Below are positions 1 through 61,989 of a stretch of DNA of 64,000 nt, piece by piece. Under the pieces are notes generated by a model, which worked only from the letters and a program-made list of their open reading frames with translations, made no database searches and was not told the DNA's origin. A program made the translations under genes and the position numbers. How positions within the stretch are numbered: the first letter of the stretch is position 1; every line of letters starts with the position of its first letter. The DNA is from Epiperipatus broadwayi. Its lineage: Eukaryota; Animalia; Onychophora. The DNA lies in the NCBI GenBank assembly GCA_028023455.1, contig JAQFVV010000008.1:1116001-1180000 (forward strand), written 5' to 3'.

Positions 1-1100
1 TTATTGTGTTAGCCTGGATAGTATGGTTGGAATAATTAATATTTTCTTTTTGAAGATTAACAGGTGATTGGGTATTATTATGAGTTACATATCCTTCTAT
101 GGAGTGAATAACATCTTATTATTATTTTATTCCATTTGTATGCTTCCCATCTCATTTTCTATTTCATCCTGACATTCCTTTTTATTTTTATTTTCCTCCA
201 TTCTATTAATAGCTTGTATTATACGATTTAATTGATCTGAAGTGGTCTTTTCTTCCACATTAGATAATTTAATCTTTTTAAGAGCTTGTGTGTGTTTTTC
301 TACTATTATTTGTCTTTCCTTATCTTATTCATTTTTTAAATCTTTCATAATTTGTTCTATTGCAGTATTTTTATTTTCTAATTGGTTCAATATATTTGAT
401 TGATTTTCTAATAATATTTCAATATTATTTTTATTTTGTTTTACGTCTGCATCTATCAAGTTTTGTTTTATATTAAGAGATTGGAAATCGTTTTCTATGG
501 ATTGAATTTTTGTCTCTTGGTTATTTATTTGAATTTCTTGTTCTCTTTTATGATTAGTAATTTCTAGATGGACGTCTTTCATTTTATCATCTATGTATTT
601 TTCAGTTTCTTCTAATTTTTGTATATTTCAAATGAAAGATTGTTATTATACTTTTCATTTCTAAAAGTTTACTTTCCATTTTAGTCTCTATTTTTATTTC
701 AAATTCAATAAATCTTTTCTGACAATTAAAATCTTTTTCTTCAATGACTTTTTGAATTTTTCGTATTTTATTATCCATGTTAGTTTGTATTTGTGATACC
801 TCATCTTTTAATTCAATTTTTATACTATCTAATTTTTTTTTGATAATTCTTCTGTTATATCTGCTTTCAAATTTGTTGATCAGCTTTCATATTTTCCATC
901 TTTGTAGATATATCTACATTCATATTTTCTATCTTTGTATTATTCATTCTTATGCTTTCCATCATTTGTTGCACCATAAACATCATATGATTTAATGATG
1001 AATCGTTATCACTTGCATCCTTTTCTATAGGTTTATTTAGAATATTATTGGTTTCTGATATATAATATTTATTGTTGAAGTCCCCCAGATACACCTATGT
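1..1100 (-). mobile_element. Decayed gag-like coiled-coil ORF of an LTR retrotransposon (runs off the window start)
   Basis: ORF pieces 867-1094 and 325-582 (-) are heptad-rich coiled coil (MMFMVQQMMESIR...; QETKIQSIENDFQSL...). They lie downstream, on the minus strand, of an LTR end and PBS candidate at 1601-1622. The gag call is an inference. Confidence 0.5.
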
Positions 1101-9389: not shown

Positions 9390-9638
9390 ATAGTAAAAGG
9401 AGAAGGAAAAGATGACTATTAAGAAAGTACATTAGATCATAAAGGTACAGATCCAAAACTCCTGACTAATGAAAGCCATAATCTAGAAACTGGTTTTGTA
9501 TAGGATAGAGATTTATTAAGCACTATCATTTTGCATCTATTAATTATTAGAGATTACACTAGGTAGTGTAGCCAGATTATAATTGTATGTACATCCACAC
9601 ATCTTCATTCATAAATATATTAATATGATTTCTTTCAG

Positions 9639-9904
9639 AATGCACACAAGTAGAAGCATTAGAAGCGGCCAGTCTTCATCCTGCAAAAGTACTTAATATT
9701 TCCAGTAGTAAAGGATCACTTGATTTCAATAAAGATGCAGATTTTGTATTGCTTGATGACAAATTACAAGTTCTTGCTACATTTATAGCAGGAAAATGTG
9801 TTTATGAAGCTCCTGGTAAAAAACCATATGAAATTATTCCAGTAGATAAGGAAGGCTTAGCTCAACAATATCATGGAGTTGGAGATGGATATTTGCCTTT
9901 ATAA
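9639..9904 (+). CDS. AMDHD2: Terminal coding exon of N-acetylglucosamine-6-phosphate deacetylase
   Basis: Acceptor tttctttcag ends at 9638. The frame from 9641 gives [56 protein letters not shown]..., matching the nagA/AMDHD2 C-terminus ([24 protein letters not shown]). Stop TAA at 9902-9904. No upstream exon was recognised in this window. Confidence 0.92.
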
Positions 9905-12009
9905 ACTAATTATTTCTCACTTATCTCAGGTTACGAAAAATGCATTCATGTTCCTGCACGATGTGATAATTTATTTATTTTGAAAATTTATATTAAATTA
10001 CAAATTTTTCAGATACAAATATGTTTTGTTAAAATGTTTATTTTTAAAGATAAGAGAACTAAAGACTTTATGAAATTTAAATAAAAAATGTGTATTAAAT
10101 ATATATATTTAAAAGTTAAATTTGTATATTGATTTTTTTAAAATCTGCATTTAGATATATATTTTTTAATAAAATGTATTGAATCTCAAGTTTTGATTTA
10201 TTTTGTATAGCATGATATATTTTTTAAGCAGTTTATTATATAAATATTAATATGTATTTACACACACATTACTTTCATTATGAATAAAAATATAAGTAAA
10301 TATATTTCATTGTCAAAACAAAATAATAAAATTAAAGGCAATAGATTGCTGTTCATATCAACTCCCTTTCTATTATAAATTATTTCTTCAAAACTCAAAC
10401 TACTTTATATTATTACTAAATTTGACAATAAATAAGTTAGTATTAATGAATTTTATTACTAAATTTGACAGTAAAGAAGTTAGTATTAATGAATTTTAGG
10501 ATAGATATTTAGTAGATATTTTAAAGCTTTAAATTTAATACTGAATAGAAAAGCTTCAGAACAATAGTTATTTTTATTAATCTTTAGTGAATATTGGCTA
10601 TCGTCAGTGACATATATTTCTATTAGAAATTGTAACATACAGTTATTTGATGTAATATCAAACTACAGATAATAATACAGGCAAAAAATTTAATAGGAAT
10701 ATTTTAGATCTTAAACATAATGGATTTTAAACCCATAGTTTTTAAACTATATATAAATATTTTCAAGTTTGAAAATAAATAATCTTTCAACGAAGATAAT
10801 TTGGAATAGTTTAAATAATGAAAATAATATTGTTAAATTAAAAGTAATAATAAAACTATAGAAATAAAATGATGATTAATCAGAAGACTGCTTAATCAAA
10901 CAGAAACTCAAAAAAAAGAAATATTTGAATAATAACTTATCTTCAGTGATAGTTGCATAAACATATATGAATTATAAATAAATTGAATTGGTTCAAATAA
11001 TTTTATTCTCTTTTATAGTTATAAACTGAACATAATTATTATATTCTATATATGTATTTTTGTTCAGCTTGTTATTTAAAATATATTAACAAGGTAAAGC
11101 AAGAGTGTTGTATCAATCTTTTGTTAGAAGGCTAAATTTTTTTAAAAATTATCTTATAACTAAGATACTAAAAAATATAGTTTCTGATCTAGTTTTAAAC
11201 TAAATTTGTATATAAAGTAGTTGATTTGAATTTAAAGTTTTGCAATTATTAAGCAATTATCTTGAATATTATAAAATGAATAAAAGATGACAATCCAAAA
11301 TCATGCTGTTTAACATAAAGCCAATCAAACAAAACTCATTCAAGGAAATGCGTTTGCATTATCATATAATATTAGTTGATTATGCAATCTTAACATGTAA
11401 ATGACTTATGCAAAAAATATTTTTCATAAAAGATTTTTAATCAGATTGATAGACTTACATACTTGTAGCTATAGACTTGCAAAACTTTTAATATTGTCAT
11501 TCAATTTTGCAAATCTATTATAATACAATATCAAATAATAATTTTATACACACACATTTTTAATTAATATAAATTTGTTTTTAGATCTAATACTATTAAT
11601 TCTCTAATGATAACTTAGTTGTAATCTTGAAAAAAAATATAAAATTTAAATTATGTCTTTTATACAATTTTTTTTTTATTATTATAAAAATTGATCCAAA
11701 GAAATAAAAGTGTAAGAGGTTTTTAATTACATACTTTTAGTAACTAGAGATTTGCATAATTTTCAGTATTGTCTTTCAACTTTTGCAAATCTATTATAAC
11801 ACAATATCAAATAATAATTGTAGCAAAGAAGTAACTTTGTACTCATACATATACACAAATATTTTAATGCAAATTTATTTTTAGATTTAATGCTATTCTC
11901 TAATAACAAATTCATTTTTAGAGAATATGTTATTTCTGTGAAAGTTTGTGATGATGGTATATTAGATTTGTTTGAACTAATCCTCATGAAATTTCTATTT
12001 GCTGTCTTT

Positions 12010-12275
12010 GACAGAATAGCTCATTTAGTTAAAGCGTTGACCTAAAAATTCAAGAATCTAAAAGTGTAAGTTCAATTACTATGCTAATATTGTCACTGGT
12101 CAGGCCAGCAACGTCTGAAGAAGAACAGAGAATAATAGTATTCAAAACATGTAATTATTAACTTGTGTTGTCTATTTGTGTGTTATTTTTTGTATTTGTA
12201 AAGTTTAAATAAAGTTTACAATTTTTCTATACATTTAACAATAATTGATGGAAATAATCCAATATATTACATAAA
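12010..12275 (+). mobile_element. Family-1 tRNA-like + hammerhead-motif element, copy A
   Basis: GACAGAATAGCTCA A-box-like head, AAGTTCAATT B-box-like motif, then CTGAAGA...AAAACATGT. Clearly homologous to 40120-40413 and 44519-44792. Confidence 0.6.
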
Positions 12276-15299: not shown

Positions 15300-18200
15300 T
15301 CAAATAGCTAAAAAGAAATCTCCAGTAGAGGTCAATGGGTGATGAGGTCAGACTTACAGTAAATAGGTTAGAAATAAAAAAGTTGAGAGTAGAAAAATTC
15401 AATAGACATAACTGCAAATGGTCAGCAAATTTTAATTACTTTATATATTTAAATTTTGTAATGTTTAAATTGTAAAATGAATTTAAAATAAAACAAAGAA
15501 ATGATTTTTTTTCTCCATGGTGTAAGGGGTAATTGAGATGGATGCTTTGCTATGTCTCACAAAGTTATATATATATGTAGTAGAATAGAGGTTTCAGTTA
15601 AAATTTCTACTTCAAATTTATTTAAAAAAATTTCTAATTTAAATTATGTTAAATGTGTGTTATAAAGTATGGTTGCAAGTATGTACACGCGCACATACAA
15701 ATTGCTTAAAATTAATAAAAGTAATGTCAATTTTTTTTATATAAAAAAATAAACTTTAAATAAATCTGTTATCTTTCATGTAAGATTATTTTAAAATTTG
15801 TAGAACAATGCTTAACCTTAGAATAAAATTTTAATTTGTTGTAATAAAAAAATTTAAGAGTTAAGATTGTTCAAATAAGACATGTAATAAAAGTAATTAG
15901 CATGGAAGATAAAAATGTTTGATTTTAATTGATTAAAAATTTGTTTATTTTGATATGCTAATCTTGAAAGTTCTAGAAAAATTTGTGTGGTAGAACGGTA
16001 GAACAAATGGGTATAAAAGTTCTGCAAAATCTTTTGTTTTATTAAGAAAGCATTTCAAGTTAGGCCGAAGCTATTCATTTATTAATTCAATCTATTCAGA
16101 TTCAAGCTAGTCATTTCTTAATTGAGTGGATTCAGCCAGTATATTCTACTAGATTTTATTCATCAGATTTGTTCAGGACAAGCAGCCTGCATTAGTATAA
16201 TGAACCAATACATTTTTCTTAGTAATGTTTTTCAAAATATGCTGAGTTACGCACTTCACCAAGATGAACTCCATGCTCTAAATTGAACCTTCATCCTCAA
16301 ACATGAAATGAATTCTAGAAATCTGACAAAACCAATCTACAAAAAAAACTCAACTGACCATCCAAACAATTACAACTATAAAATGGACCAAGATAGCTAC
16401 ATCTTCAATCAATAGCAGGAAGCACCTTTATGGACTTAGTGGTATGGTAAAATTTTATATACCTCAAAATAAGCCAGGGGTTATAAGTGCCTTTTGTAAA
16501 TATGCATTATTTTTTTTATTAACCATAATATTAGATATAAATGAATTTTTTTCTTTATTTTGTGCATCTTATTAATTTCTTCATGGAAGAGGTTTTGTTT
16601 TATTATTATGATAGATGTTGATTTAGGTAATTAATAGACCTTAAGTTAATTTAAATGATTCAGACCATTGAATAATAAAAATTTTTAATGCTTAAATTTC
16701 TATTCTACTTTTTTTTTTGATTAGATCAGTTGCATAATTCATTGCTATTACTGATGATAGCAGTCAAAAGCAAATAAAACATTAAATAAAATAAATTGAG
16801 AAATTCATAGACTAATATTTTCTTAGTAAATTTCATTCTATAGAATGGTTAAAATCTTTAGTTATATGTGTATACAAGGACCATTGAAGGGTAATTTTAA
16901 TTTTTTTGTATATTAAATTTTTTAATGTTTAAAATGTAAAATGAATTTCATATGGTCTGTAGAGGTTATTAATGATACAATTGGTAGGAAAATATTAAGG
17001 TCAGACTTGTGCAGGCTATTATAGCCTTTGTATAGTTAATTGCATATGGTTATAGGTATTATGTCCAATAAGTCTGCCCATTGTAAATCCACTATCTGGT
17101 GTGGCTTGGGTTCGATCACACTGCACTATGCTTTAGCAAAACACAATTCTTCCTAAGTTTGTAACAATAATAGAAAAGTTAATTTAAATCTTATACAATA
17201 TCACTCTTAAGGGTCATTGTTATTATATAAATACTTTGATAGTATTGGCTTTTGCTGGAGATATTACTCTAGAGAAATAAGTCTGAATCAACTTTTCACC
17301 TAAGTCTTATCTGTTGGGACTATTATTATTTTTTATTTTGGGGGAAGTTGTGTTTTTTATATTTAATTTTTTTTAATATAAACTCAGAAATGAATAAACG
17401 GTTTTATTGTATTTATTAAATTAATTTGGCTGATGTTTGTTTACTATGTCTGTATTAATTGTTTAATAATTCAGAATTATTCTCTAAGCTGAGCTAGTGT
17501 CGGGCAGGTAATTCATATTTTGTCAGGATGCTCATTATTGTTAATGAATATTCAGTCACAACAAATAAACTTTTTAGGTTTATTAAATAGCCTAGTGGTG
17601 CCTTCAAGTGATGATGTTATTAATGCTGGTGTGGATCTGGTAAATAAGGTAATTTTATTGATGTGGCACCCAACATGGAGCTCACACCCACAACCCTGAG
17701 ATTCATACTAGCATTGGAAACATTGTGACTTGGGGTGTCACTATGCTAATTAATGAACCTAGAAAATTTATTTGAGATGACTGAATATTCACTAATGATG
17801 AGTATCCTGACAAAATAAATTATCTACCCCTGACACTAGCTCAGCTTAAAATATGAGATTCCAAATTATTAAATAATTGATAGACAGACATAGTAAACAA
17901 ACATCAGCCAAATTAATTTAATAGATATAATAGTTTATTCATTTCTGAGTTTATAAAAATTTTTTTTAAGTAAATGAAAGCCTCCCCCAAAATGAAATTA
18001 AATAAAACAAAGTGACATTTCATCATGGATGAGTTCCATCAGATAAGATCTAATTGAAAAGTTAAGCCAACACTCAAAATATATAAAACAATGACCCTTA
18101 AGAATGATATTACATACAATTTAAATTAGCTTTCCTATTATTGTTACTAACTTAGACAGACCTATACAGTTTTCTAAGGTGGTGCAATCAAGCCACATCA

Positions 18201-19920
18201 AAAAGATAGTGGACTTACTATGGGCTGTCTTATTGCATTCAAAACCCATAACCATATGCAATTTAATTTAACATATCATTCTTAATTTCCACAAATGCAT
18301 ACAGAATGCTAAGGCATTGCATGGTGTGATCAAACCTCAAGCTATGCAAGAGATACCATGGATTTACAATGGGCTGTCTTATCACCGACAATACTCTATC
18401 AAATGCACTTTACTATATGTCAGCTATGATGGCCTGCACTAGTCTGGCACTAAAGATTTTAAACATTCTGTAGAATGAAATTTACTAAGAAAATATTAGT
18501 CGGAATTTCTCAATTTATTTTATTTCATACGTTTTGTTTGTTTTTGACAGCCGTCATCACTAATAGCAATGGATTATGCAACTGATCTAATCAAAAACAA
18601 AATAGAATAGAAATTTAAACATTGAAAATATTTTATTATTCAATGGTCTGAATTATTTAAATTAACTTAAGGTATATTAATTACCTAAATCAACATCTAT
18701 TATAATAATAAAACAAAATCATGAAGAAATTAGTAAGAATTAATAAAATAAAAAAGTACATTTATACCTAATATTACATTTAAAATGTGCATTTACAAAA
18801 GGCAAACACTTATAATAACCCCTGGCTTATTTTAAGGTATCTAAAAGTTTATATTACCATTAAGTCCTTCAAAGTTGATTAGCTTTCTACTATTGATTGA
18901 AGAGATAGCCTTGGTGCATTTATATTGTAGTTGTCAAGTGGTCAGTTAAGTTTTTGTAGGGTGACTGGGTCAGCTTTCTAAGGATTTATGACATGGAAGA
19001 TGAAAGTTTGACTTAGAGCATGGAGTTTGTCTTGGTGAGATGCCTAGCCTAGGATATTTTGAAAAACATTACTAAGAAAAATGGATTGGTTCATTACTGC
19101 AAGCAACTTTCAAATGAATCTCTGATGAGTAGAATCTACTGGCTGAATCTACTCAATTAATAAATGAATAGCTTCAGGATAGCTTCTGCCTAGCTTAGAA
19201 TGCTTTATGAATTAAACAATATATTTTGGGGAGTTTTTATATCCATTTGTTCTATTGTTCTACCACATATTTTTCTAGAATTTTCAAGAATAACATTTTA
19301 AAATAGCCAGGTTTTTTAATTACTTAAAATCAAACATTTTTACATTCCATGCTTATTACTTTTATTACATATCTTATTGGAACAATCTTAACTATTAAAT
19401 TTCTTTATTGCATTAGATTAAAATTTTATTCTTAGGTTAAGCATTGTTAAGTTTTAAAATAATCTTATATAAAAGATAACAGATGTCTTTAAAAAGCTTA
19501 CTTTTTTTAAAAAAAAAAAAACATTGAACGAAATTATTTTGTTGATTCATGTGTGTGCATGTATATACATCTGATCACACTTTTATAACATGTTTAATAT
19601 AAAACTAAATTGACAAAATTTCAGAATTAATTTGCAAGTATATTTTTTTTAATGGAAACCCCTATTCTATATATATAAATTTGAGACATAGCACAGCATC
19701 CATCTCAACTTACACCATAGGAAAAAATAATTGAAATTTTCATTTTTTTTTAAAATTTCATTTTACATTTTAATCATTTAGATATACATACAAGTTAAAA
19801 TTTGCACTGTTGTTTGTCTATTGGATTTTACTACTCTCAACTAACTTTATTACTATTCCATTTACTATCAGTCTGGCCTCATTGCCAGACTATCTGGAGA
19901 TTCCTTTTTTTTTTTAACTG
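15300..19920. repeat. ~4.6-kb imperfect palindrome (arms ~15300-17638 and ~17699-19920)
   Basis: Blockwise reverse-complement matches, e.g. 15781-15930 vs 19321-19470, 17401-17560 vs 17780-17940, and 17565-17638 vs 17699-17775. The spacer is only ~60 bp. Confidence 0.88.
17664..17703 (-). pseudogene. Copy of the mature 3' half of tRNA-Lys(CTT), including CCA
   Basis: TGGCACCCAACATGGAGCTCACACCCACAACCCTGAGATT vs the reverse complement of tRNA-Lys(CTT)+CCA as recalled, TGGCGCCCAACGTGGGGCTCGAACCCACGACCCTGAGATT: 34/40 identical, and 4 of the 6 differences are CpG>CpA. Confidence 0.85.
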
Positions 19921-22900
19921 TTATAATCTCCCCTTTTCTAAGCTGTAGGATATATTCAAGAAAATCTTTACAACTTTAGAATCAAATATTTTTTTGGCTG
20001 AGTCAAATGGCTTAAACTTAAGTGTCCACATCTGTGGAATTATTAGCTGTTTTTGTAACAAGATTTTCTTACCCAATAGTTCTGCATATTTCATGATTAT
20101 CAGCGGCAGTAATGATGTGCAAAGATATTTAAAAACTAGTTTGCCCATCCCAGCATCTTTAAGTTTTTTCTAAAAATTATTTTTATATCTGGGTTTTTAA
20201 TTATATAAATATCAGCAATCATATTAAATGATTTGTGAAAATAGCTGACAAAGTCTGCACCCAACAGTTTTCTTTCCACACATGGAACTTGTCTTCATTT
20301 CATAGTTAGCCTGAAATTATCTTTCATAATTAAGATACAAACACTTATTCTGTTCTATTGTTTCTGTCCTGGAAACTTATCATTTCAGTACTAACAACTT
20401 CTTTTACCTGTCTTATACATTCCGATCTTAATTCTCTTTAATTCCACTAGCATCTTCTTTTCCTACCTTTACTTGTTCTACTTCTTCAATTTCTTGACTT
20501 AAATCTTTCTCTACTGTCTATTGCCTCCTGATTCTTATCTATTCTATCCCTTATCTCTTGCATCATTTCTTTCTTCAGATCCTGTTTAACTTCTTTTATC
20601 ATATCACTCTGACATCTCAATTTGTCTTCATCTTGGAAAATGAAACCAAAACTTATTTTATAAAGCTGACTTTAATTTTTCTATTTTAAAATAAAAAACT
20701 ATCTATTTATACTCAAAATGTTGATTTCTCTTATATATAATTACTTTTTATTTATATCAATTCATTTATTGATAAACCCCTACTCTAAACCATCCTCCAT
20801 TTCCAACCTACTCATATGCCCTATCAATTGTTTAAGCAAAATATATAATAGGTTTAAACTTAAGCTCCTATGTTGGCTATGCTATTTTAATTTTAAAAAA
20901 ACCTGACACTAGCTTAGATTAGAGTTTAAGTCCAAATTATTAAACACTTGATAGATAGACACAGTAAACAAATGTTAGCCAAATTAATTTAATAAATATA
21001 ATATTGTTTATTCCTGAGATTATAAAAAATATAAAACAAACCTCCCATAAAATAATGTTTCTTCATGGTGAGTCCCATCAGATAAGACCTAAGTGTAAAG
21101 TTGATTCAGACAATTATATTTTAGAGTAATATATATATATAACCAGTAAAAGCCAACATTATCAAAGTATTTGTGTAAAAATGATCCTTAAGGGATAGTG
21201 ATATTGGATAAGATTTAAATTAACTTTTCTATTAACATTATTAATTTAGGCAAACCTATACAGTTTGCTAAAGTACAGCAATGAAATCAAACCTAAGCCA
21301 TGTCTAAGAGATAGTGGACTTACAATAGGCCATCTTATTGCACACAACACCCATAGCCATATTCGATTTAATATAAGAAGGCTATAATAGCCCACAAAAG
21401 TGGCATTTATACTTGTCTACTAATTGTATTATTACTACCCTCTACAACCCCATACAAAATGCTAAGGCAGTGTATAGTCTGATGAAACCCAAGCCGTGCC
21501 AAAGAGATACAATGGACTATTTTATTGATATGTAGGCTATAATTACCTGCACTAGTTTGACTTACCCTTCAATATTCCTTGTATACAGTTATAACTAAAG
21601 GTTTTAAACATTCTGTAGAAATAAATTTAGTAAGGAAATATTAGTCTATGAATTTGTCAATTTATTTTATTTAATAAGTTTTGTTTGTTTTCGCTGCTGT
21701 CATCACTAATGGCAACAAATTATGCAACTGATGTAATAAAAAAAAAATAGAAATTTAAACATTAAAAAAAATTGTTATTATTCAACAATCTGAATTATTT
21801 AAAGTAACTTAAGATCTATTAATTACCTAAATCAACATCTATCATAATAATAAAACAAAAACTCATCCATGAAGAAACTAGTAAGATGCATAAAATAAAA
21901 AAGTACGTTAAATGTAATATTAATGATTATAAAAAAATAATGCCCATTTACAAAAGGCAAAGACTTATAACAAGACCTGGCTTAATTTAAGGTATATAAA
22001 AGTTTACATTACCACTAAATTCTTCAAGATAATTGCTTTAGCTTCCTGCTATTTAATCAAGAGATAGTTTTCTTGGTCCATTTTATAATTGTAGTTGTTC
22101 AGGTGGTTAATTGAGAGTCTTTGTAGATTGATTTTAGGAGGTCAGCTTTATACGGATTCGTAACATGGAATTATGAAGTTTTGACTTAGTACGTGGATTT
22201 CATCTTGAGGTGCCTGGCCCAGTATATTTTGAAAAACACTAAGAAAAATTGATTGGTTCATTGTACTATTGTAGGCCACTTGTCTCGAATAAATCTTATG
22301 AATAGAATCTACTGATTGAATCCACTCAATAAATGACTGGCTTGAATCTGAATAGAAAATAAACGAATAACTTTTGGATAACTTCTGCCTAGTTTGGAAT
22401 GATTCTGAATGAAACAACAGGTTTTGTGGAGTTTATACCCATTCATTCTATTGTTCTACCACAAATTTTTCTATTGCATGTCTTATCTGAACAATTTAAA
22501 AACTCTTAATTTTTTTTGTTGCAACATATTTAAATTTTGTTCTGAGGTTAAACATTGTTCTACAAAGTTTTAAACTATTCTTACAGAAAAGATAATAAAT
22601 TTATTAAAAAAGTTAACTTTAAAAAAAAAATTAACATTAAAATTATTTTGCCAACTTATGTGTGTCCATGTATATACATGTGATCACACTTTTATAACAC
22701 ATTTAATATAAAACTAAATTGACAAAATTTCAGAATTTGCAAGTATAATTTTTTTTTAATTGAAATCCATATTCTTCTACATATATAAATTTGAGACAAA
22801 GCAAAGCATCCGTCTCAACTGCCCTTTACATTACGGAAACAAAAAATTATTAAAATTTTACATTTTTTAAAAAAAATTTCATTTTACATTTTGAACATTT

Positions 22901-24480
22901 AAAAATTTAGATATACACAGCAGTTAAAATTTGCTGATCATTTGCACTGTTGTCTGTGTATTGGATTTTACTACTCTCAACTAACTTTTTATTTCTGTTC
23001 TGTTTTACAGTAAATCTGACCTCATTGTCAATTGACCTCTATCTTGAAGTTCTTTTTTAAAACTATTTTAACTCTAAGTGTCATTGATATGATGCTCAAT
23101 CTATATACTTGAACTTGTTCTCATGTATGTTTGTACATTTTGAGCTTAGCCAGGATTTGCCCTTTTCCTAAGCTATAGGATATATTCTAGAAAATGTTTA
23201 CAACTTTAGAATCAATTAAATATTTCTCTGGCTGAGTTAAACTAGGTTTATGCTTAAATGTCCATATCTGTGGCATTATTAGCCAACTTTCTAACAAGAT
23301 TCTCTTACCTAACCATTTTACATACTTCATGACTAACACTGGCAGTAATGATGTGCAAGGATATTCTAAAATTATTCATTTTTATATCTGGGTCTTTAAT
23401 TATATAAATGTCAGCAATCATATTAAATGACTTGTGGAAATAGCTGACAAAATCTGCACTCAACAGTTCTTTGTATAGTATTTGAAATTTTTTTTCCACA
23501 TACAGAACTTTTCTATTCATTTCATAGTTAGCCAAAGTTCTCTTTCATAATTCTGATACAAATACTCATTATGTTCTCCTATTTCTATCCTAAAAACTTA
23601 TTATTTCAGTACTAACAACTTCTTTTATACTTTCTGATCTTAATTTCACTACCATTTTCTTTCCCTACTTTTACTTGATGTTTTTCTTTTTCAATCTCTT
23701 GACTTACATCTTTCTCTACTGTCTATTGCCTCCTGAATTTTATCTTTACTACCCCTTCTCTCTTGATTCATTTCTTTTTTCAAATCTTGTTTAACTTCTT
23801 TTATCATTTCATTCTGACTTTGTCTCAATCTTTTATCTTGAAAAATGAAACCAAAACTTATTTTATAAAGCTGATTTTAACTAACTACTTATACTCAAAA
23901 TACTGACTTCTCTTATATTTAATTACTTTTTATTTATATCAATTTATTAATTGATGAATGCCTTTCTAAACCATCCATTTCTAACCATATCATTACTAGC
24001 ACTTATTCATCTTTTATTTTTCCAAACTATTCATATGCTCTCAATTGTCTAAGCAAAATATATAATAGGTTTAAACTCGAGCTCCTATGTTGGCTATACT
24101 ATTTTAATAAAAAAAAATTACTTTCTCCTGACACTAGTTTAGGTTAGAGTACGAATTATTAAACACTTGGTAGACAGACACAATAAACAAATGTTAGTCA
24201 AATTAATTTAATAAATATAATATTGTTTATTCATTTCTGAGGTTATATAAAAAATTTAAATATTATAGAAAACCTCCCCCAAAATAAAATTAAATTAAAG
24301 AAAATCTCATCAGATAAAATCTAAGTGAAAAGTTGATTCAGACCATCATATTTCTCTAGAGTAATATCATTAGCAAAAGCCAACACTATCAAAGTATTTA
24401 TATAAAAACATTGATTCTTAAGAGATAGTGATATTGTATAAGATTTAAATTAACTTTTCTATTATTACTAACTTTCAGCT
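17829..24480. repeat. Diverged tandem array: units start at 17829, 20902 and 24127 (third is partial); period 3.07-3.23 kb
   Basis: The unit head CCTGACACTAG recurs and is followed by collinear homology. Each full unit carries minus-strand decayed ORF pieces (19921-20660, 22148-22417, 23150-23840). Confidence 0.85.
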
Positions 24481-24725
24481 AACTCAATATAAGCATTATT
24501 TTTGCCCTCAACAAAATGAAAATTTATTTAAGTCTAATTTGCAATAATTTTAATATGCATAATGTAAAGCAAATAATAGTGAAAGGATAAAAAGATCGTA
24601 TGTATAACTATAAATTCGTAAGTCAGTTATTCTATTACTTTAATGAAATTACAGACAATGACCAAAATAAAAGTCATAGATCAATTCATAGATCACATGA
24701 CCCTATCTCTTAAGCTTGTAAGTTA

Positions 24726-24968
24726 TAAACAGTGAGGATTGCCAATTCCTCTACAAGCTTTATGATAAATGCTTAGCCAGAGCCAGCACTTAAAATATCT
24801 CTGTCAGGAACCCCTCCCCAAACCCCTGACCATGGTTTCGTGCTGCCAAAGCACAAAACCATGGTCAGGGGTTTGGGGAGGGGTTCCTGACAGAGATATT
24901 TTAAGTGCTGGCTCTGGCTAAGCATTTATCATAAAGCTTGTAGAGGAATTGGCAATCCTCACTGTTTA
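24726..24968. repeat. Perfect palindrome / long hairpin
   Basis: 24726-24838 is the exact reverse complement of 24856-24968 (113 bp). Inside that are one C/A mismatch, a 5-bp stem GTGCT/AGCAC and a 5-nt loop GCCAA. Confidence 0.97.
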
Positions 24969-25693: not shown

Positions 25694-27735
25694 TTTTTTT
25701 TATTGTTAAGAAATAGATTTATTTTGAAAAACTACATGAATTATGGTATATAAATTACTTGAAATTAAGGATTCATAGGTGTCCCACTGCATGTTTGCCC
25801 ATACAAGGGACCTGGTCATATTCAGTCCTATGCTTTTGTCTGCCAGTCTACCCCTGTGCAGTTAACTAGATTCCATGGGATCCAATCATCAATTATTGTG
25901 TAGCTAAACATTTATTTATGGCACCCTGGCTATTACATAATTAAAACCAAGATTTGTCAGATGCATCATGTCACTCTTTGCATTGCAGGGATGTTGTCGT
26001 CCCTTGCAGACATGAATCTGCAAGTGTAGAGGACCCACATTTCCACAACTTTGTCAACCTCAATAGCGCATTTAGGCCACTATTCACAGTTATCTCACTT
26101 ATTACAGCATGATACAGCTTTACCATCCATCTCTATAGTTTAGACAGGATTTTAGTGGTAATATTTGGTATATGGTCTAGAACCATCTGCTCCCAGGTAT
26201 CAGGGAACAGTTTGGCCGGAGCTATTAGATGATCTCTAGTTTTTAACTTACACATGAGTTGCTTGAACACTTCCCATGGAAGTGACACCTGGTGAGCCAT
26301 TTTGTGATAGTATCATGATGGCTATCTGGATTGTGGTGAAAGTACCACTCCCTCATTGCTTTATACATATTCAGTATAGAGGCACATCCTGACTGAACAC
26401 TAGAATGCAGTCTTATTTCAAGATCTACAAATTTCTTGCAGGGAGAGAATGTGTTATCCATTGTCTCTTCATCTTCACCACAGAGGGCACATGTTGGAGC
26501 AATGTTTTTGAACCCTCTGCAATCCATAAATTGCCTTGTGGGAAGCACATTGAGTTGGTATTTTATAATGAAATTCATTAATCTGGGTTCCATGGCTCAA
26601 TATATAGCTTTCTTAAGCAGTGACCTTATGGATACATTTAAGTCTTCCTGGGTTTTTGCTAGCTGGGATACATGTACTTAAACATGTCTCAATCGGTTAT
26701 CTTGTTGCTAAATAGCTGGCCTGTGTCGGGTATGAGCCCCGCCACATAACCCTCCAATTCTGCTATTTGCTTTTTATAGGAGGTGGGGTGGTTCTACTGT
26801 ACTTGTGATTTGAAGTTCTGTGTCTGTCTCTTTTGACACCTTCAGTATGGTTATCACTCTTTGTATGTAAAGTACCTGAACTGCGTGGAACCCAAGACCA
26901 TTCAAATCCTTAAGTTTCCACATTTTCCAAAGATGCAGACTATTTTGTTTGGTGTTTTTTTCCATAGCAGCTGGGTACATGCTGCATTAATGGTGTTCTG
27001 AAAGGTCTTGGTTTGATGATCAGGAGGTAGTATGCAATCTGTGGCAAGACTAACATATTGAGCAGTGTCACCTTGCTTGGGAGTGACAGGGAGATCAAGA
27101 ACAAGCTGCTAATACCTTTTTTAGTCTTCTCTATGAGCATATTTTGTATCTGTTGCCTCATTGTGGATTTTGACAGCACCACTGGGAAACCTAGCAAATT
27201 TTGGGTCATCCCAGTGAATTTAGAATGCCCCAGTGAATTTAGATGTTAGGTTCTTTTCTTTGTTGATTCACCATACTGCAGTTTTCGAAGGATTAACTTT
27301 CAGATGATACTTGGCAGCATATTCATCTAGGAGTTGGTGAAGCTGGGGAAGGAACTTTGCAGATGGAAGGATGATAGTTACATCATCTACATATGAGATA
27401 TGATGTATCACTTCCCCCAGTGCTGGACCATATATGCCAGGCAACTTGTCCTCTATTTCCTTTAAGAGAGGGTCATTGTGTGTCATTTATACAATGAAAC
27501 ATAGGGTGATAAGCGGTCACCCCTGGGGTATAGATATGTGTAGCTGAAACCCTGGGGCAAGAGAGCCATCCAGAGTTATAAGAATTGTTCTATTGAGCAG
27601 CAGGTTGGAAATGATCTTGACATATGTCAAGGGGACCCCAGGCACAGTAAATAGCTGTCCAGGCATCACAGAGTCAAAGGCCATCGCAAAATCCAACTGG
27701 ACAACAATGGGTTAAAATTTCCTCTTCTTCCTGAT
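25694..27735 (-). mobile_element. 5'-truncated, degraded non-LTR retrotransposon (L1/Tx1-like RT and C-terminal zinc-knuckle region)
   Basis: Minus-strand peptides LDFAMAFDSV, SIPQG, SYVDD, KVNPSKT, KVTLLNMLVLPQIAY and CALCGEDEET. An A-rich tail lies near 25694-25701. Confidence 0.8.
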
Positions 27736-39928: not shown

Positions 39929-40413
39929 TAAGATGTGATATGTTGGACTATTTCCATCATTTATGAGTGAATGTTGAATGTATAGAAAATTTTAAACTTT
40001 TCAAATACAAACAACTTGTTAGTAATAACATACAAATAGAAAAAAAATTGAAGGATCCAGGAGGATTTGAACCAACCCTCATATATAAATATATCAAATT
40101 TCTACTATATGTTGACTTTGACAGAATAGTTCAGTTAGTAGAGTGTTTGCCTTAAAATTCAATATTCAAGAATCTAAAGGTGCAAGTTCAACTTCTAAGC
40201 AAATATTGTCACTGTGGATATAGGCCAGCAACACCTGAAGAAGAGTGGAGAATAATACTACTCGAAATGTGTAATTACTAACCTGTATTGTCTATTTGGG
40301 TATTATTACTAACAAGTTGTTTGTATTTGGAAAGTTTAAATAAAGCTTAAAATTTTCTTTACATTCAACATTCACTCATAAATGATGGAAATAATCCAAC
40401 ATATCACATCTTA
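39929..40413. mobile_element. Family-1 element, copy B: inverted termini around a tRNA-like module (40120-40211) and a hammerhead motif
   Basis: The outer ~55 bp of the two ends are near-perfect inverted repeats (TAAGATGTGATATGTTGGA... / ...TCCAACATATCACATCTTA). GACAG/TTGTC acceptor-like ends. Confidence 0.72.
40231..40272 (+). ncRNA. Penelope-type minimal hammerhead ribozyme motif (decayed)
   Basis: ACAC-CTGAAGA-A-GAGTGG-agaataata-CTACTC-GAAA-t-GTGT. Stem II is GAGTGG/CTACTC and stem I is ACAC/GTGT. This copy lacks 3 nt of stem III relative to 44361-44405 (-) and 44609-44655 (+). Confidence 0.6.
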
Positions 40414-43640: not shown

Positions 43641-44221
43641 TTTGCTATTTTTTACAATGCTTCGAATCCCTTATATATTATATCAATTATAGTGATTTTG
43701 ATTGCCCCAGCAATCTTCTTCAGATCTATAATAAACATAAATACAAATACATGAATATTTATATAGAAACACATAATTTTCACATATATTTCATATTATA
43801 AATTCCTCTTTTGAATCTATATATATACACACATCTTACTTATATACTCCTTTATATATATACACACACAAATATTCTTAATCTCTTTAAACATTTTTAT
43901 ATTGTTTATATAATTGATTCTTTTTATAATCTTATATATAACATTCTTTATTTTATTTATTATTTTCATTAATATATTCACTTTTTTATTCTAATTTTAA
44001 CATACTTTATCCATATTTTCAGTTTTTTATATTTCCTATTTTATGAATATCAATACTTAATATTTATTCTTAATCTATATTTTCATATCTTTAATTTTTT
44101 TTTGTTTTTTAATTTTTTTAAATCTATTTTATAATTTATTTTTTATTAAATCTTACATTCACCTTTTTAATCCTAATCCAACTCAACTATTTGCCTGAAG
44201 ATGTGATGATAGTATATTAGA

Positions 44222-44792
44222 TGTGATAATATGTTGGACTATTTCCATCTTCTATCAGTAAATGATGAATATATAGGAAATTTTAAACTTTATTTAAATT
44301 TTTCAAATACAAACAACTTGTTAGTAATAACACACAAATAGGCAACACAGATTAATAATTACACAATGTTTTGAGTAGTAGTATTCTCCACTCTTCTTAA
44401 GGTGTTGCTAATTTGATCAGTCACAGTATTTACATAGGAATCGAATTTGCACCTTTAAATTTTTGAATATTGAATTTAAGGTAAATACTCTAACCAACAG
44501 CCTTTGGTATGATACCTCGGTTAGAGCATTTGCCTTAAATTCAATATTCGAGAATCTAAAGGTGCAAATTTGACTCCTATGCAAATACTGTCATTGGTCA
44601 GGCCAGCAACACTTGAATAAGAATGGAGAATAATATTACTCAAAAAACATTGTGTAATTCCTAACCTGTATTGGCTAATTGTGTGTTATTATTAACAAGT
44701 TGTCTGTATTTGAAAAGTTTAAAGAGTTTAAAATTTTTTAGACATTCAACATTTACTGATAGATGATGGAAATAGTTCAACATATTATCACA
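44222..44792. mobile_element. Family-1 head-to-head palindrome (copies D, minus, and C, plus), 23-nt spacer
   Basis: The arms 44222-44495 and 44519-44792 are reverse complements. Both start at GGTTAGAG inside the tRNA-like module, and each carries a decayed hammerhead motif. Confidence 0.82.
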
Positions 44793-44849
44793 ACTATTAA
44801 CTATGTAAAATTTTGAATTTTCCATTAATTTCTAGTAGCTTCCTCTTTT

Positions 44850-46037: not shown

Positions 46038-48665
46038 CACCTGGGTCTCATTTTATGTGGTAGATAGGTTGCTCAAAAAACGTGCACAAAAGAAATCGCA
46101 CAAAAATAGACTTAACTTACCTTGAAAAATGGGGGATATGTACTGTAATTTTCCAAAAATCGCATAAAAGCAAAACAACATAAAATTACTTTAAAATTCG
46201 CATAAGAAAAAGGTAGTCATCGAAAAGCCACCATATCCCATTAGATGGCGCCATTTTTGCGCTAAAACACATAAAAATGCCATTTCCACGGGCGTCACAT
46301 TCAAATCCGCATTTTCTATAATACAACTTTTTTATTATGCTACAGATTGCAGACCGCTATGTCGCCGTTGCAGTACAGCATGTATGTCGCATTGCAGCAA
46401 ATACATTTTCCGAATTCACAGAGTTTATAAAATGGTTACGGCTTGGTAAGAGGGTGTGTTTTTTTGAATTGGATGGAAATGTTGTTTTCATTGGATTTGT
46501 TTTTATTTTAAAGTATTGAAATGTTCAGATTTTGTAAAGTAATAATTAACAGACTTTTTACACCATAGTATATTGAAGTTTTAAGTGTTAAATGTTGACG
46601 AGATATATGTATAAAGTGAGTTGGAATTAGGTAACGTGTCAAGTAACGTAGTAACATTCCACGAGACCAAGAAGATTGTACCGTGTATATTTTTGAAATA
46701 AAAAAGAGCGTTAACACAAAAATATCCAGTAGGAAAAGTACAATTGCACACTGTTTTTTTAAATGTCATAAAAAGCACATATTATAAACACGTTTAATAA
46801 GTAAAGAAGACATTATATATATATATATTTGTTGTTGTTTAAAAAAGTTTTAGTTTCTTTTCTCCGACTACTGTTATACTTTGTTGAATATAGTTTAAGT
46901 TTATTGTTATCATTTATTTTATAGATGTTATTAAAAAAAATATTTACAAAAATACGATTTTGATATTTTTTATTTTAGCATTACAAACAACAGAACACTA
47001 ACCCTAAACCTAACCGAAAGCAACTTTTACTTTTAGTTGTCATTCTATTTGAAATAAAAAATAGCGGTAATATCTTTTTGTCTGTAAAAAAAAAAAAAAA
47101 AAAAGTAAAACAAAGATTAAAAAATAGCAATAACACAAATATCTGTTTCTCTGTAGAAATAAAATATAAAAGAAACACTAAGAATTTTTACTTTTTATTC
47201 CGATTATGAGTTTTTAAACAACAAAAAAAGCCGTTACCCCAGTAAAAAAATCTCCGATAAAAAATTGATTTTTCTAATAAAAAGTAAACTAAAAAAAATG
47301 AATCAAATTGTAATTTGTTTATTTTATTTTACATTTATTATTATCATTTAATTTGTATACGTTAATAAAAAATAATATTTAAAATTAAATAATATTTAAA
47401 AAAGACGATTTTCTTTTGTTTTTATTTTCGCATTACAAAAAACACATCGAAATGATTATAATAAACGGCCCGGGAATGATCATATTTTATAGTTTAAGCA
47501 TGAAAACTGCGCCATCGAGTGGGATATAGTGGCTATTTGATGACAACCAAAAAGAAAATAAAATATGACTAATAAAAAATTTCAAATCTGAAAAAAATTG
47601 ACACAAGACAAACTTTTTTTATTAACTACAGTATTTAATTTTATTCAAAACAATATATTTTTATGCATAATTTACATTTTTTTCATACATGTGCGGTATT
47701 TTATTAATTATTCCTATTTGAGACATCAGATTCATCATGATGTGATATGATATGAGGTACTGTAGCTTCTTCTTAAACAAAGTCAAGAGGAAATACAACT
47801 AAAATGTTTTCCAATCGCTGTTGATCCTTCTCATTTTGCTAAGCGATCTAAAATTGAAATTTTTGTTTATAAAGAAATTCATTTTCTTGGGTGTTTTTTC
47901 TCTTTGTTAGAATAAACTAAAAGTTTAAAATAAAAATAAGAACTTAGACTTACGATAATAAAAAGACGACTCACCACTGTTGGAAAAAATGTAATTAAAA
48001 TTAACAATTAAAAATTAAATTCTTATTTTTATCTTTGATTTTCAATTCCGTTTAAAAATCAAATTTCATCGTTTCACATAACTATAATGTTACATAATTG
48101 TTAAATTGTTAATTACAATTAAAAATCAGATTTTAATTGTCAAATTTAATTGTGCCCACCACTGTTACTCACCTTTTAAAAATAAACTTGCGGACACTAA
48201 ATGATTAATTGATTATGTACTCTTTTTATAAAAAGCAAAACTAGAACGTGATTTAAAATACAAAAACAACATACATAGTATTTTTCATCTATAACGTCTG
48301 AACAGATTTATGTTATAATCTTGTAAAATTTAATGTGTGTATATAAAATGGGGAGATTCTGATTTTAAGTGAATTATGAACTTCTTTATTGCATAAAATC
48401 TATTACAGTACTATTATAAAGTGCTGAAAATAGTGAAATTATTAGATGGAAGTTGAACTCCGATAATGCGCTATTTCTTTAAATATGACGTGAGTGCGTG
48501 AAATTTATAATATTTAAAGTAATAGCGCATTATCGGAGCTTGACTTCAGATCTAATAATTTTTATTGCATAAAAGAAAACTGCATACAAAAATATTAAGA
48601 AGAAACATGAATCACATAACTTCAAAATCGCATTAAATAAATCCGCATAAAACGAGACCCGGGTG
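46038..48665. mobile_element. Non-autonomous Tc1/mariner (pogo/Tigger-like) TIR element, copy 1, with a nested insertion
   Basis: TA-CACCTGGGTCTCATTTTATGTGG...CCGCATAAAACGAGACCCGGGTG-TA; TA target duplication. Confidence 0.8.
46212..47548. mobile_element. Nested 1.34-kb non-autonomous TIR element (GG...CC termini)
   Basis: GGTAGTCATCGAAAAGCCACCATATCCCATTAGATGGCGC vs the right end reverse-complemented, GGTTGTCATCAAATAGCCACTATATCCCACTCGATGGCGC. The site is empty in copy 2 (A-run near 49005-49030). Confidence 0.8.
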
Positions 48666-52909: not shown

Positions 52910-53052
52910 TTAATCTTCTTTGAAAACTGGTCTTATTCGTGTATCTTCTGTGAAGGCTTCATATACAAAAGCTGCTAAAACAAGATGAACTGCTAATACT
53001 GCAACAACTGTGGCATAAATGTAACTTTGAGTTGAAGTCATCATAAAAATAC
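52910..53052 (-). CDS. VMA21: VMA21 exon 3 (last coding exon)
   Basis: Acceptor ttttatag, then (G)GT IFMMTSTQSYIYATVVAVLAVHLVLAAFVYEAFTEDTRIRPVFKED*. Matches the VMA21 second transmembrane segment (YAAIVAVVAVHVVLALFVY) with Lys at -3. Confidence 0.93.
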
Positions 53053-53137
53053 CTATAAAAATACACCAAAATGTACAAATCGCAATAAGTATTAAATGAT
53101 CTAAAAAAAAAAATCCCAATATATTTTCTAAAATTAC

Positions 53138-53244
53138 CTTCAAATACCATTGACTTTGTGAGAAAATATAATGTTAGTGGTGAAGTAATCATAAGGAATG
53201 TATATAATAATAGCTTTTTCAATACTGATCCTGTTGGCTCATCT
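53138..53244 (-). CDS. VMA21: VMA21 exon 2
   Basis: tttcag acceptor and GTAATT donor. Encodes DEPTGSVLKKLLLYTFLMITSPLTLYFLTKSMVFE(G), like VMA21 LKTLLFFTALMITVPIGLYFTTKSYIFEG. 107 nt, phases 2/1. Confidence 0.92.
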
Positions 53245-53447
53245 CTGAAATAATAAAATATTAAGGGAGTAAAATTAATAGAAAAAATAAATATACATAC
53301 ATATATTTACAGTTTTCTAGAAACAATGCATTGACTTTGATAATTGACACTGTGGTCATTCAAAAGAAGACTATCACACATAGTCACTCTTAACAAATTA
53401 TAGTATAGCATATATAAATAAAATTTAAATATACACCTAGATCTCAC

Positions 53448-53786: not shown

Positions 53787-53900
53787 GTTTTTGTTTTTTT
53801 TTTAAGTGTCATAGCATCGGCCGGGCCGCGAACCCGCAACCCGGACAACTGCCTGCAAGTGCAAGGCAGTCGCGCTGACCTCTCACCACCAATGCAAGAC
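53787..53900 (-). mobile_element. Retroposed tRNA-Gly(TCC)-derived short SINE or pseudogene (tRNA body 53814-53895)
   Basis: GCATTGG/CCGATGC acceptor stem, ACTGC/GCAGT anticodon stem and CCGGG/CCCGG T stem align with tRNA-Gly(TCC). A-rich tail; 10-bp TSD ATAAGTCTTT at 53777-53786 and 53901-53910. Confidence 0.8.
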
Positions 53901-55506: not shown

Positions 55507-55750
55507 ATGTAATTATATAAGGGATTTGAACACAAACCCTCACACTCGCTTCAGCTCTCTGCTCAGTCTCATATAACTGATACACATGACCACACATATG
55601 TGAAAAAGATAAATGATCTCTAACATGGTATTGCATGCTGAATCAGCTTATCTTTTTCATGTATGATCCTGTGTATCGGTTATATGAAATAGAACAGATA
55701 GCTGAAGGGAACATAAAAATCTGTGTTCAAATCCCTTATATAATTATCAT
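55507..55750. mobile_element. Family-2 short palindromic copy
   Basis: ATGTAATTATATAAGGGATTTGAACAC...GTGTTCAAATCCCTTATATAATTAT inverted termini. The centre has GCTGATTCAGCATGCAA on the minus strand, a remnant of hammerhead stem II/GAAA. Confidence 0.6.
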
Positions 55751-60760: not shown

Positions 60761-61989
60761 CTTGGCAATTCAGCTGAGGTAATAATTGTAGAAACAAAAT
60801 ACTAATGCATTATCAATATGAGTAAATTTAAATAAAAAATGCATATTTTTTATAAATAACTTCAGCAGTTTTTTAAATAGAAAGATTAAGATAGAGGATG
60901 TTATTTTGTCCAATTTATTATGATAAAGTGAAAGCACCGAAAAAAATTCATTCAAGGATGTTCTGTAAAATTCTAGAATATAATGGCAAGATCATAAGAC
61001 CAACTAATAACTAATATATTCTTCAGCTATCTAGTTATGACACTATTGAATCTATCATTGTAAAGGAACAACTTAGATTGTGCAAATGAAATGAATCAAT
61101 AGTAAAACTACATATTAATTTATTTTAACATAAGCATGGTTTTCATGAGAAGAAAACTCTTCTTTCATTATAAAAATTATTTCAAAGACATTCTAAAGAG
61201 ATATAATACTGATTATTTTCTGTCTAAGAAAATATGGCTGAGAATAGAAAACAATAAAAAACTAAAATTAGACAATGTGTTGTGGACTTTAAAAAAAATT
61301 TGCTAAAGAAGTTAAAAAACAGTAGCACAAAATAACATATAAATAGATCAAATGACTACTTTGTGTTCATTGATTGATTTGTACAGTTATAGCAAAACTC
61401 AACTTTAACTTTTTCTCTTTTATTACAATTACATAATTAGCACATTGTTTTTTTAAGGTGAGTAAACTACTCTCATCTTAGACTATGAATAAATAACTTT
61501 TGGAGTGTTAATAAAAAATCAAGAATAAAATGGATCCTCTCATTCATTAAACTTTTGGTATCTTATCTTTGCCAACAACAATGAAAATTGAGAGTGAAAT
61601 TAAATATATTAGCCAAATAAAAATGGGGCATTAATAATTATTAAACTAATAATTTATACAAGGATAGAGACAAAATATATCACTTTTAATAAACTTTATA
61701 TTAGTAATTAAATAAAAATTAATAGTTAAGCATGAAATTAGTAATTTTTATTTAATTACTAAAACAAAATTAATTAAAATTGAGATTGTCTTCATTCATA
61801 TAAAACAGATTAGTTTAATAATAATTAATGCCATATTTTCATCTGGCTGATATTACATCAAAAACTTAAGGTTGATATAACATCAAAAGCTTAAAGAATA
61901 AATGAATCCATTCTATTCATGATGTCTTCTAGCATATCAAAGTTATTTATTCATAATCTGAAGGACAGTGATCTACTTACCTCAATTAT

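What the first reader, a model, noticed from the sequence alone, without database searches (positions are those of the whole stretch)
15300..19920. 4.6-kb palindrome whose axis is the CCA-bearing 3' half of tRNA-Lys(CTT), ending at the anticodon loop
Seen: two ~2.3-kb inverted arms mirror each other to within ~60 bp of the axis. The spacer is 25 nt of unique sequence plus a 40-nt antisense copy of tRNA-Lys(CTT) positions 37-76 (34/40 identical, mostly CpG decay). It includes TGG (=CCA), and its last ~5 nt overlap the arm end as microhomology. Established: eukaryotic tRNA genes do not encode CCA; LTR-element PBSs normally copy only up to ~18 nt; position 37 of tRNA-Lys is hypermodified, and anticodon-loop cleavage produces 3' halves. 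Inference: the left arm's minus strand reads tRNA-half-CCA followed by sequence antisense to the ORF remnants. That is the geometry of a tRNA-primed cDNA whose primer was copied up to position 37 before a fold-back or template switch. This could be a fossil of an unusual tRNA-half-primed retroelement or replication intermediate.
Basis: partly seen in the sequence, partly recalled or inferred. Interest (0 to 1): 0.78.

Follow-up and report, generated by a model that had tools for sequence, protein, structure and literature searches.

The report
Palindrome hinged on a copied tRNA
An old, decayed animal repeat sits here as a 4.6-kb mirror image hinged on the back half of a lysine tRNA, most likely a fossil of a retrotransposon's reverse transcriptase over-running its own tRNA primer and folding back, an accident also seen once in an unrelated genome.

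Summary
Arms 15310-17638 and 17699-19909 are 72-79% alike (old, not an assembly fold-back), a single-copy contig spans the hinge, and 17703-17664 matches tRNA-Lys(CTT) 37-76 with CCA at 34 of 40. The right arm opens a tandem array of a multi-copy 3.1-3.2-kb unit. Each unit starts with a modified tRNA-Lys 5' half (1-39). Unit junctions keep only a primer-binding-site-sized remnant (55-70); positions 37-54 occur only at the hinge (17 of 18, against 5 and 6 of 18). A short purine tract lies about 320 nt from the hinge's tRNA copy. This fits an LTR-like element with an ordinary Lys primer site, plus a one-off read-through of the primer to A37 and a fold-back via 5-nt microhomology. Metagenome locus L122 shows the same tRNA-at-hinge palindrome. 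Against: no gag/pol homology, ORFs no more than chance, no TG...CA ends, a non-CpG change shared by hinge and junctions, and five other self-inverted repeats in the window. A dedicated tRNA-half-primed element is not supported.

The parts
15310..17638 (+). Left arm: inverted, outer-end-truncated copy of the repeat unit
17639..17663 (.). 25-nt loop segment, present in the left arm only; partly covered by another genomic copy; inferred end of the terminal repeat
17664..17703 (-). Copy of tRNA-Lys(CTT) positions 37-76 including CCA, 34 of 40, no T-run downstream; last 5 nt shared with the right arm
17699..19909 (-). Right arm (runs on without a break into unit U1)
17469..17505 (-). Modified tRNA-Lys(CTT) 5' half (1-39), left-arm copy
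   Evidence: 0 of 3000 shuffles, local post-hoc test; not above chance window-wide
17826..17866 (+). Modified tRNA-Lys(CTT) 5' half (1-39), U1 copy; most other genomic copies carry the tRNA's base at four further positions
   Evidence: (1 of 3000)
17826..20901 (.). Tandem unit U1 (about 3.1 kb)
20902..24126 (.). Tandem unit U2 (about 3.2 kb), starts with a decayed 5' half (20902-20937)
   Evidence: 111 of 3000
24127..24466 (.). Partial unit U3 (340 nt), starts with a decayed 5' half (24127-24162)
   Evidence: (11 of 3000)
20861..20877 (+). Remnant of tRNA-Lys 55-70 at the U1/U2 junction (inferred primer binding site, read on the minus strand)
   Evidence: (74 of 3000)
24077..24093 (+). Remnant of tRNA-Lys 55-70 at the U2/U3 junction (inferred primer binding site)
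   Evidence: (0 of 3000)
17340..17347 (+). 8-nt purine tract after a T-run (candidate polypurine tract), 317 nt before the hinge tRNA copy
17981..17988 (-). Same purine tract in U1 (also 24273-24280 in U3; shorter in U2)

Best explanation
The palindrome is likely the fossil of an aberrant reverse transcription of a probably non-autonomous, LTR-like retroelement primed by tRNA-Lys(CTT), in which the second strand would have read through the still-attached primer to position 37 and then re-primed by folding back. Shown: the mirror arms; the 40-nt tRNA copy with CCA at the hinge; the 5-nt overlap; a tandem unit whose junctions carry only tRNA 55-70; a tRNA 5' half inside the unit end; a purine tract about 320 nt from the tRNA copy. 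Inferred: (1) read on the strand antisense to the tRNA, the order purine tract, roughly 320-nt terminal repeat, primer site, internal region is an LTR layout; (2) the left arm's minus strand is primer plus first-strand cDNA; (3) the over-extended second strand could not make a normal transfer and annealed about 60 nt back, on itself or on a second template, giving the right arm; (4) the tandem units arose at about the same time or slightly later by repeated jumps or unequal crossover; (5) the antisense 5' half in the terminal repeat may have served as a second primer-pairing site, as in Ty3.
For: tRNA 37-54 matches 17 of 18 at the hinge but 5 and 6 of 18 at the two junctions, no better than shuffles, while 55-70 is kept there. 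111 of 115 control tRNA-Lys loci without CCA have a T4 run within 30 nt; the hinge copy has CCA and none, like 5 of 7 control CCA loci. 4 of those 7 have TG within 0-3 nt of CCA, as expected of LTR ends (TG...CA rule recalled). L122 has tRNA 8-76 with CCA between 257-nt inverted arms, 88% alike. The purine tract is the only one of 8 nt or more with 4 or more G in the left arm and U1 stretches scanned (U3 had one more). The most heavily covered part of the family (depth 2,000-12,000 against about 30 for single copy) lies between tract and primer site. HIV-1 plus-strand synthesis has a minor stop at modified A37 whose product is not a usable template (PMC13191261 passages). Ty3 has a bipartite primer site with a U3 part pairing the D arm (PMC5371799 passages). 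The three copies are about equally diverged (79.2, 79.4, 82.1%).
Against: No Gag, protease, RT or integrase match: Pfam none on six frames and nothing above curated cut-offs on 17 pieces, HMMER on 1.84 billion proteins 0 hits, word searches 0. ORFs of 70 aa or more: 7 observed, matched or exceeded in 60 of 200 shuffles; no clear third-position excess in 5 comparisons, one of them out of frame. No TG follows the CCA at the hinge and no TG...CA ends are evident. The hinge copy shares a non-CpG C61T with both junction remnants, which a fresh tRNA copy would not be expected to have. The junction remnants lack a clear 71-76. Five other self-inverted repeats lie in the same 64 kb (0-1 in each of 10 shuffles), so fold-backs are common here for other reasons. 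The HIV-1 stop is at ms2t6A of tRNA-Lys3; Lys(CUU) carries the smaller t6A (recalled). Arms extending past the purine tract need an extra template switch.
Confidence: 0.5

Rival explanations
1. Two-step, DNA-level origin: the tRNA 3' half was already a fixed part of this repeat copy (an old retrocopy), and a later break was repaired by microhomology fold-back, as seems common in this genome. The hinge at position 37 is then incidental.
For: Six self-inverted repeats in the window against 0-1 in shuffles, one hinged in the head of a tRNA-like SINE (44209-44804). C61T is shared between hinge and junctions. The 5-nt microhomology and 60-nt loop fit break-induced fold-back.
Against: It leaves the exact stop at A37 and the CCA-without-terminator copy to chance or to an earlier RT event. 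L122 shows the same tRNA-at-hinge layout elsewhere. The junctions lack 37-54.
Confidence: 0.22
2. A Penelope-like (PLE) mobilised unit: partial tandems form pseudo-LTRs, the 40-nt tRNA complement is the 30-40-nt 'tail', and 3' self-priming made a tail-to-tail inversion.
For: PLEs form partial tandems with inverted 5'-truncated copies and a 30-40-bp tail, move host sequence in trans, and would give tail-to-tail repeats on sense self-priming (PMC8557442, PMC3846280 passages). Both outer ends here are truncated at different points.
Against: No PLE RT or GIY-YIG match. No hammerhead core found (simple recalled pattern). A PLE tail should equal the sequence after the internal pseudo-LTR, but 37-54 is absent there. 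Head-to-head is the usual PLE form. No tRNA priming was seen in the passages read.
Confidence: 0.13
3. A 3-kb DNA element (Dada-like) inserted at the anticodon of tRNA-Lys, splitting it into 1-39 and 37-76 with a 3-bp overlap; the array was amplified, and a break at the element end folded back.
For: 5' half at every unit start and a 3' remnant at unit ends; halves overlap at 37-39. Dada families insert around anticodons in the antisense orientation and in tandem (PMC8869645, PMC3706591).
Against: The junctions lack 37-54. The 5' half carries the same small indels in the window's copies and no indel row appears for it among laid contigs, so it travels with the family and is not a fresh target. 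Dada-tK inserts at nucleotides 8-13 with 6-bp duplications. No transposase match. The apparent subterminal inverted repeat is not significant. CCA without a terminator argues against a gene.
Confidence: 0.1
4. A dedicated element that is primed by a tRNA 3' half or regularly copies it.
For: Clean boundary at 37; the element also carries the complementary 5' half, so it has touched both halves.
Against: Only one locus shows the 40-mer next to the unit; junctions carry a primer-site-sized piece; coverage over the 40-mer is near single copy (insensitive to diverged copies).
Confidence: 0.05

Closest known systems
HIV-1 plus-strand strong-stop product P5 (stop at ms2t6A37 of tRNA-Lys3); PMC13191261, passages read
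   Same: Copy of the primer tRNA from CCA back to the anticodon loop, joined to the end of the terminal repeat.
   Different: Known as a minor, dead-end reaction product. Here it would be fixed in an animal genome, with tRNA-Lys(CTT), as the hinge of a multi-kb palindrome.
Non-autonomous LTR elements with tRNA-derived LTRs (Helenus / TRIMp3); PMC10886601, passages read
   Same: LTR containing tRNA-derived sequence (aligned to Lys-CTT in hymenopteran families), tRNA-Lys among the primers, tandem arrays, no coding capacity.
   Different: Helenus keeps A and B boxes as a Pol III promoter and is short. Here only positions 1-39 are present, antisense to the inferred transcript, in a 3-kb unit.
Ty3 / Ty1 bipartite primer binding site; PMC5371799, passages read
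   Same: A second tRNA-complementary segment apart from the 5' primer site.
   Different: Ty3 uses initiator Met and U3 segments. Here the second segment covers the whole 5' half, and its function is untested.
Penelope-like elements; PMC3846280, PMC8557442, passages read
   Same: Partial tandem plus inverted truncated copy, and a 30-40-nt extension at an inverted end.
   Different: No RT/GIY-YIG, no hammerhead core, tail-to-tail under the inferred orientation, and the extension is tRNA.
Dada DNA transposons; PMC8869645 parts 1-3 of 5 read, PMC3706591 passages
   Same: tRNA pieces on either side of a unit, tandem copies.
   Different: Dada-tK targets nucleotides 8-13 with a 6-bp duplication and encodes a DDE transposase; neither is seen here.
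Metagenome locus L122
   Same: Palindrome hinged on a CCA-bearing tRNA-Lys(CTT) copy.
   Different: tRNA copied to position 8, TG directly after CCA+1, arms 88% alike, no sequence relation to the window's unit tested.

Membership tests
LTR retrotransposon (Ty3/gypsy type or non-autonomous derivative) | Primer binding site complementary to a tRNA 3' end next to the 5' LTR | tested here: met
   tRNA-Lys 55-70 remnant at both junctions (0 and 74 of 3000 shuffles); the 71-76 part is unclear there
LTR retrotransposon (Ty3/gypsy type or non-autonomous derivative) | Polypurine tract just before the 3' LTR | tested here: inconclusive
   8-nt tract in 3 of 4 copies, 317 nt from the hinge tRNA copy; short, no chance test run
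LTR retrotransposon (Ty3/gypsy type or non-autonomous derivative) | LTR ends TG...CA | tested here: not met
   No TG within 0-3 nt of the CCA at the hinge; bases after the tract differ among copies; copies are about 20% diverged
LTR retrotransposon (Ty3/gypsy type or non-autonomous derivative) | gag/pol homology (autonomous members) | tested here: not met
LTR retrotransposon (Ty3/gypsy type or non-autonomous derivative) | 4-6-bp target-site duplication | not testable with these tools
Helenus / TRIMp3 | tRNA-derived A and B boxes in the LTR | tested here: not met
   only positions 1-39, no B box in the repeat
Penelope-like element | PLE reverse transcriptase and GIY-YIG endonuclease | tested here: not met
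Penelope-like element | Partial tandem and inverted truncated copy with 30-40-nt tail | tested here: inconclusive
   architecture similar, but the tail does not equal the internal junction sequence
Penelope-like element | Hammerhead ribozyme in the pseudo-LTR | tested here: not met
   no core motif and no Rfam hammerhead hit; Naiads also lack it
Dada DNA transposon | DDE transposase with C/DxxH | tested here: not met
Dada DNA transposon | Insertion in an otherwise intact small-RNA gene with 6-7-bp duplication | tested here: not met
   overlap is 3 nt, 37-54 is missing at junctions, the 5' half is modified family-wide
Functional tRNA-Lys gene | Contiguous cloverleaf and downstream T-run | tested here: not met
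   no ARAGORN or Rfam tRNA call here; no T4 run

The most novel reading that the evidence does not exclude
tRNA-hinged palindromes are a recurrent, undescribed class of genomic insertion made when LTR-type reverse transcriptases over-run their primer and fold back, so genomes record where tRNA modifications stop RT in the germline (A37 here, position 8 in L122). In addition, this family pairs with almost the whole primer tRNA through a 5'-half complement in its terminal repeat plus its primer site.
Probability: 0.25. Interest if true: 0.72.

Novelty: new variant of a known kind. Interest (0 to 1): 0.45.

Why it matters
If right, it is in-genome evidence that the dead-end primer read-through product known from HIV-1 biochemistry also forms in animal germlines and can seed multi-kilobase palindromes. 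That gives a searchable signature (tRNA-CCA at a palindrome hinge) and a fossil read-out of tRNA modification stops. The locus itself is a dead repeat with no sign of function.

Tried and rejected
Assembly artefact rejected: arms 72-79% alike and a contig spans the hinge. Rfam did not call the half tRNA. Protein identity of the unit: Pfam, ESM Atlas, word searches, HMMER on representatives and viral contigs gave nothing usable; by-eye likenesses to RT and tyrosine-recombinase motifs were dropped. Alignment A1 mixed frames and was not used. A subterminal inverted repeat seen by eye was not significant (2165 and 1422 of 3000 shuffles). The idea that the 25-nt loop repeats the sequence upstream of the 5' half was not significant (227-1634 of 3000). 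The window-wide scan for the 5' half was not above chance. No RNA holder listed; X5 and X6 gave only sparse, diverged pieces. Near-single-copy depth over the 40-mer does not show that other copies lack it, because canonical tRNA genes were not picked up either. The tRNA pattern was absent from viral contigs. Literature searches listed no paper on tRNA-hinged palindromes; PMC3747384 and PMC12789967 passages held nothing relevant. Earlier scan findings: none from this genome or by sequence; the eight found by words concern bacteria or phages and do not bear on this.
Full report
Setting. The window is AT-rich (mostly 20-32% GC) animal DNA: a deacetylase exon has named hits mostly in insects and amphibians. 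Four DNA runs of one sample hold the region.

The observation. Self-comparison gives an inverted match 15310-19909 (72.4%). The arms end at 17638 and 17699. Using tRNA-Lys(CTT) genes fetched from metagenome contigs (126 loci, 113 ctt anticodon calls), the minus strand of 17703-17664 matches positions 37-76 at 34 of 40, scoring 59 against 20.5-32.5 in 12 shuffled windows, and the match stops at 37. Four differences are CpG transitions. A 362-nt contig crosses the hinge without a difference at single-copy depth in 4 of 4 DNA runs. With arms 20-25% apart, an assembly fold-back is excluded.

What surrounds it. The right arm is the start of a tandem array: U1 (to 20901), U2 (to 24126) and 340 nt of U3. 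The three long copies are about equally diverged (left arm to U1 79.2%, to U2 79.4%, U1 to U2 82.1% over 1783 columns). Near the hinge the left arm groups with U1 at 8 of 15 four-way informative sites (4 and 3 for the other groupings). The unit is a multi-copy family: 444-480 contigs per DNA run were laid on 300 nt beside the hinge; the tool warns that depth is not copy number.

A second tRNA piece. Every unit begins with a modified tRNA-Lys 5' half ending at 38-39. Window-wide this was not above chance, and the local test was post hoc (0, 1, 111, 11 of 3000 shuffles). Independent support comes from other genomic copies: at 17826, 17849, 17851 and 17859 the majority of laid depth carries the tRNA's base (75, 82, 71, 63% in X1; 42-61 contigs). 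Minority variants go both ways (17862, 17863 mixed; 17827, 17842, 17847, 17866 away).

The key test. The U1/U2 and U2/U3 junctions keep tRNA 55-70 (74 and 0 of 3000 shuffles) but not 37-54 (5 and 6 of 18, no better than shuffles), whereas the hinge keeps 17 of 18. So the family carries a primer-site-sized complement and the run to A37 is special to the hinge. This argues against a tRNA split by an insertion and against a half-tRNA tail inherited by all copies. On the strand antisense to the tRNA, an 8-nt purine tract lies 317 nt before the hinge copy and recurs in U1 and U3, shorter in U2. The order tract, repeat, primer site, internal region is that of an LTR element. This is inference: TG...CA ends were not found and nothing coding could be identified. 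The ORFs are within chance and show no clear codon signal.

CCA control. 7 of 124 control loci have CCA after position 73. Of the 122 loci with 30 nt downstream, 111 of 115 without CCA have a T4 run, against 2 of 7 with CCA; 4 of 7 have TG within 0-3 nt. The hinge copy has neither T4 nor TG. It looks like a copy of mature tRNA, though decay of a T-run cannot be excluded.

A parallel. A self-inversion scan of all 126 loci gave hits in 11, and only L122 has arms flanking the tRNA: 257 nt, 88% alike, around positions 8-76 with CCA.

Mechanism. In HIV-1, plus-strand synthesis normally stops before m1A58, with minor stops at 55, 54 and ms2t6A37; the last product is not a usable template (PMC13191261, passages). 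I infer that here the second strand ran to A37 and re-primed about 60 nt back through the 5 shared bases, producing the mirror arm, with tandem units added then or soon after. Problems: C61T is shared by hinge and junctions, which I put at roughly a one-in-seven to one-in-ten coincidence (estimate, not computed); the arms run past the purine tract; and the window has six self-inverted repeats against 0-1 in each of 10 shuffles, so a later DNA-level fold-back is a real rival. Penelope-like and Dada-like readings share parts of the layout but fail their defining tests.

Literature. Ten searches of open-licence PMC and bioRxiv listed no paper describing tRNA-hinged palindromes; subscription papers were not searched and no supplements were read (the Dada and Helenus sequence files could bear on the family's identity). 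Seen: PMC8869645 parts 1-3 of 5; passages of PMC3706591, PMC5371799, PMC10886601, PMC3846280, PMC8557442, PMC13191261, PMC3747384, PMC12789967. The TG...CA rule, t6A37 in Lys(CUU) and the CTCF likeness are recalled.

Verdict. Real and correctly described. Best read as a one-off primer over-run and fold-back of an unclassified LTR-like repeat (0.5), not a new priming system (0.05). New variant of a known kind; interest 0.45.

Noticed in passing
window 24663-24968: Near-perfect hairpin (119-nt arms, 99% alike, 24726-24968) with extreme contig depth (bin means 200,000-990,000 against about 30): probably a very high-copy young fold-back element (MITE-like).
   Followed up: partly
window 44209-44804; also 11986-12272, 40093-40409: A tRNA-like SINE family (head resembles tRNA-Phe, recalled) whose 44.5-kb copy forms a head-to-head palindrome hinged in its A-box region, arms 82% alike.
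   Followed up: partly
window 48436-48561, 55510-55746, 61453-61985: Three more decayed self-inverted repeats; six in 64 kb in all against 0-1 in shuffles, so this genome is rich in palindromes.
   Followed up: partly
L122 1-577: Palindrome (257-nt arms, 88%) hinged on tRNA-Lys(CTT) 8-76 with CCA, in an unrelated metagenome contig.
   Followed up: partly
L015, L034, L038: Full or 5'-damaged tRNA-Lys copies with CCA followed within 0-3 nt by TG and no terminator: likely tRNA-LTR chimeras.
   Followed up: no
window 17728-17744 and 17577-17594: A GC-rich motif in the unit end that ends like the tRNA acceptor-CCA and also resembles a CTCF site (recalled); it may have driven the deletion seen at the U2 and U3 junctions.
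   Followed up: no
window 26243-27486 (-): Decayed LINE with RVT_1 and zf-RVT matches.
   Followed up: no
window 9629-9904 (+); 52910-53306 (-): Host genes: an N-acetylglucosamine-6-phosphate deacetylase exon (named hits mostly insects and amphibians, 51-70% identity) and an intron-split VMA21-like gene.
   Followed up: partly
window 53813-53895 (-): ARAGORN calls a tRNA-Cys(GCA) of 83 nt with an unusually long variable arm; possibly a selenocysteine-like or divergent tRNA.
   Followed up: no
window 325-1094 (-): E/K-rich coiled-coil ORF pieces resembling a LINE ORF1; no firm Pfam match.
   Followed up: no
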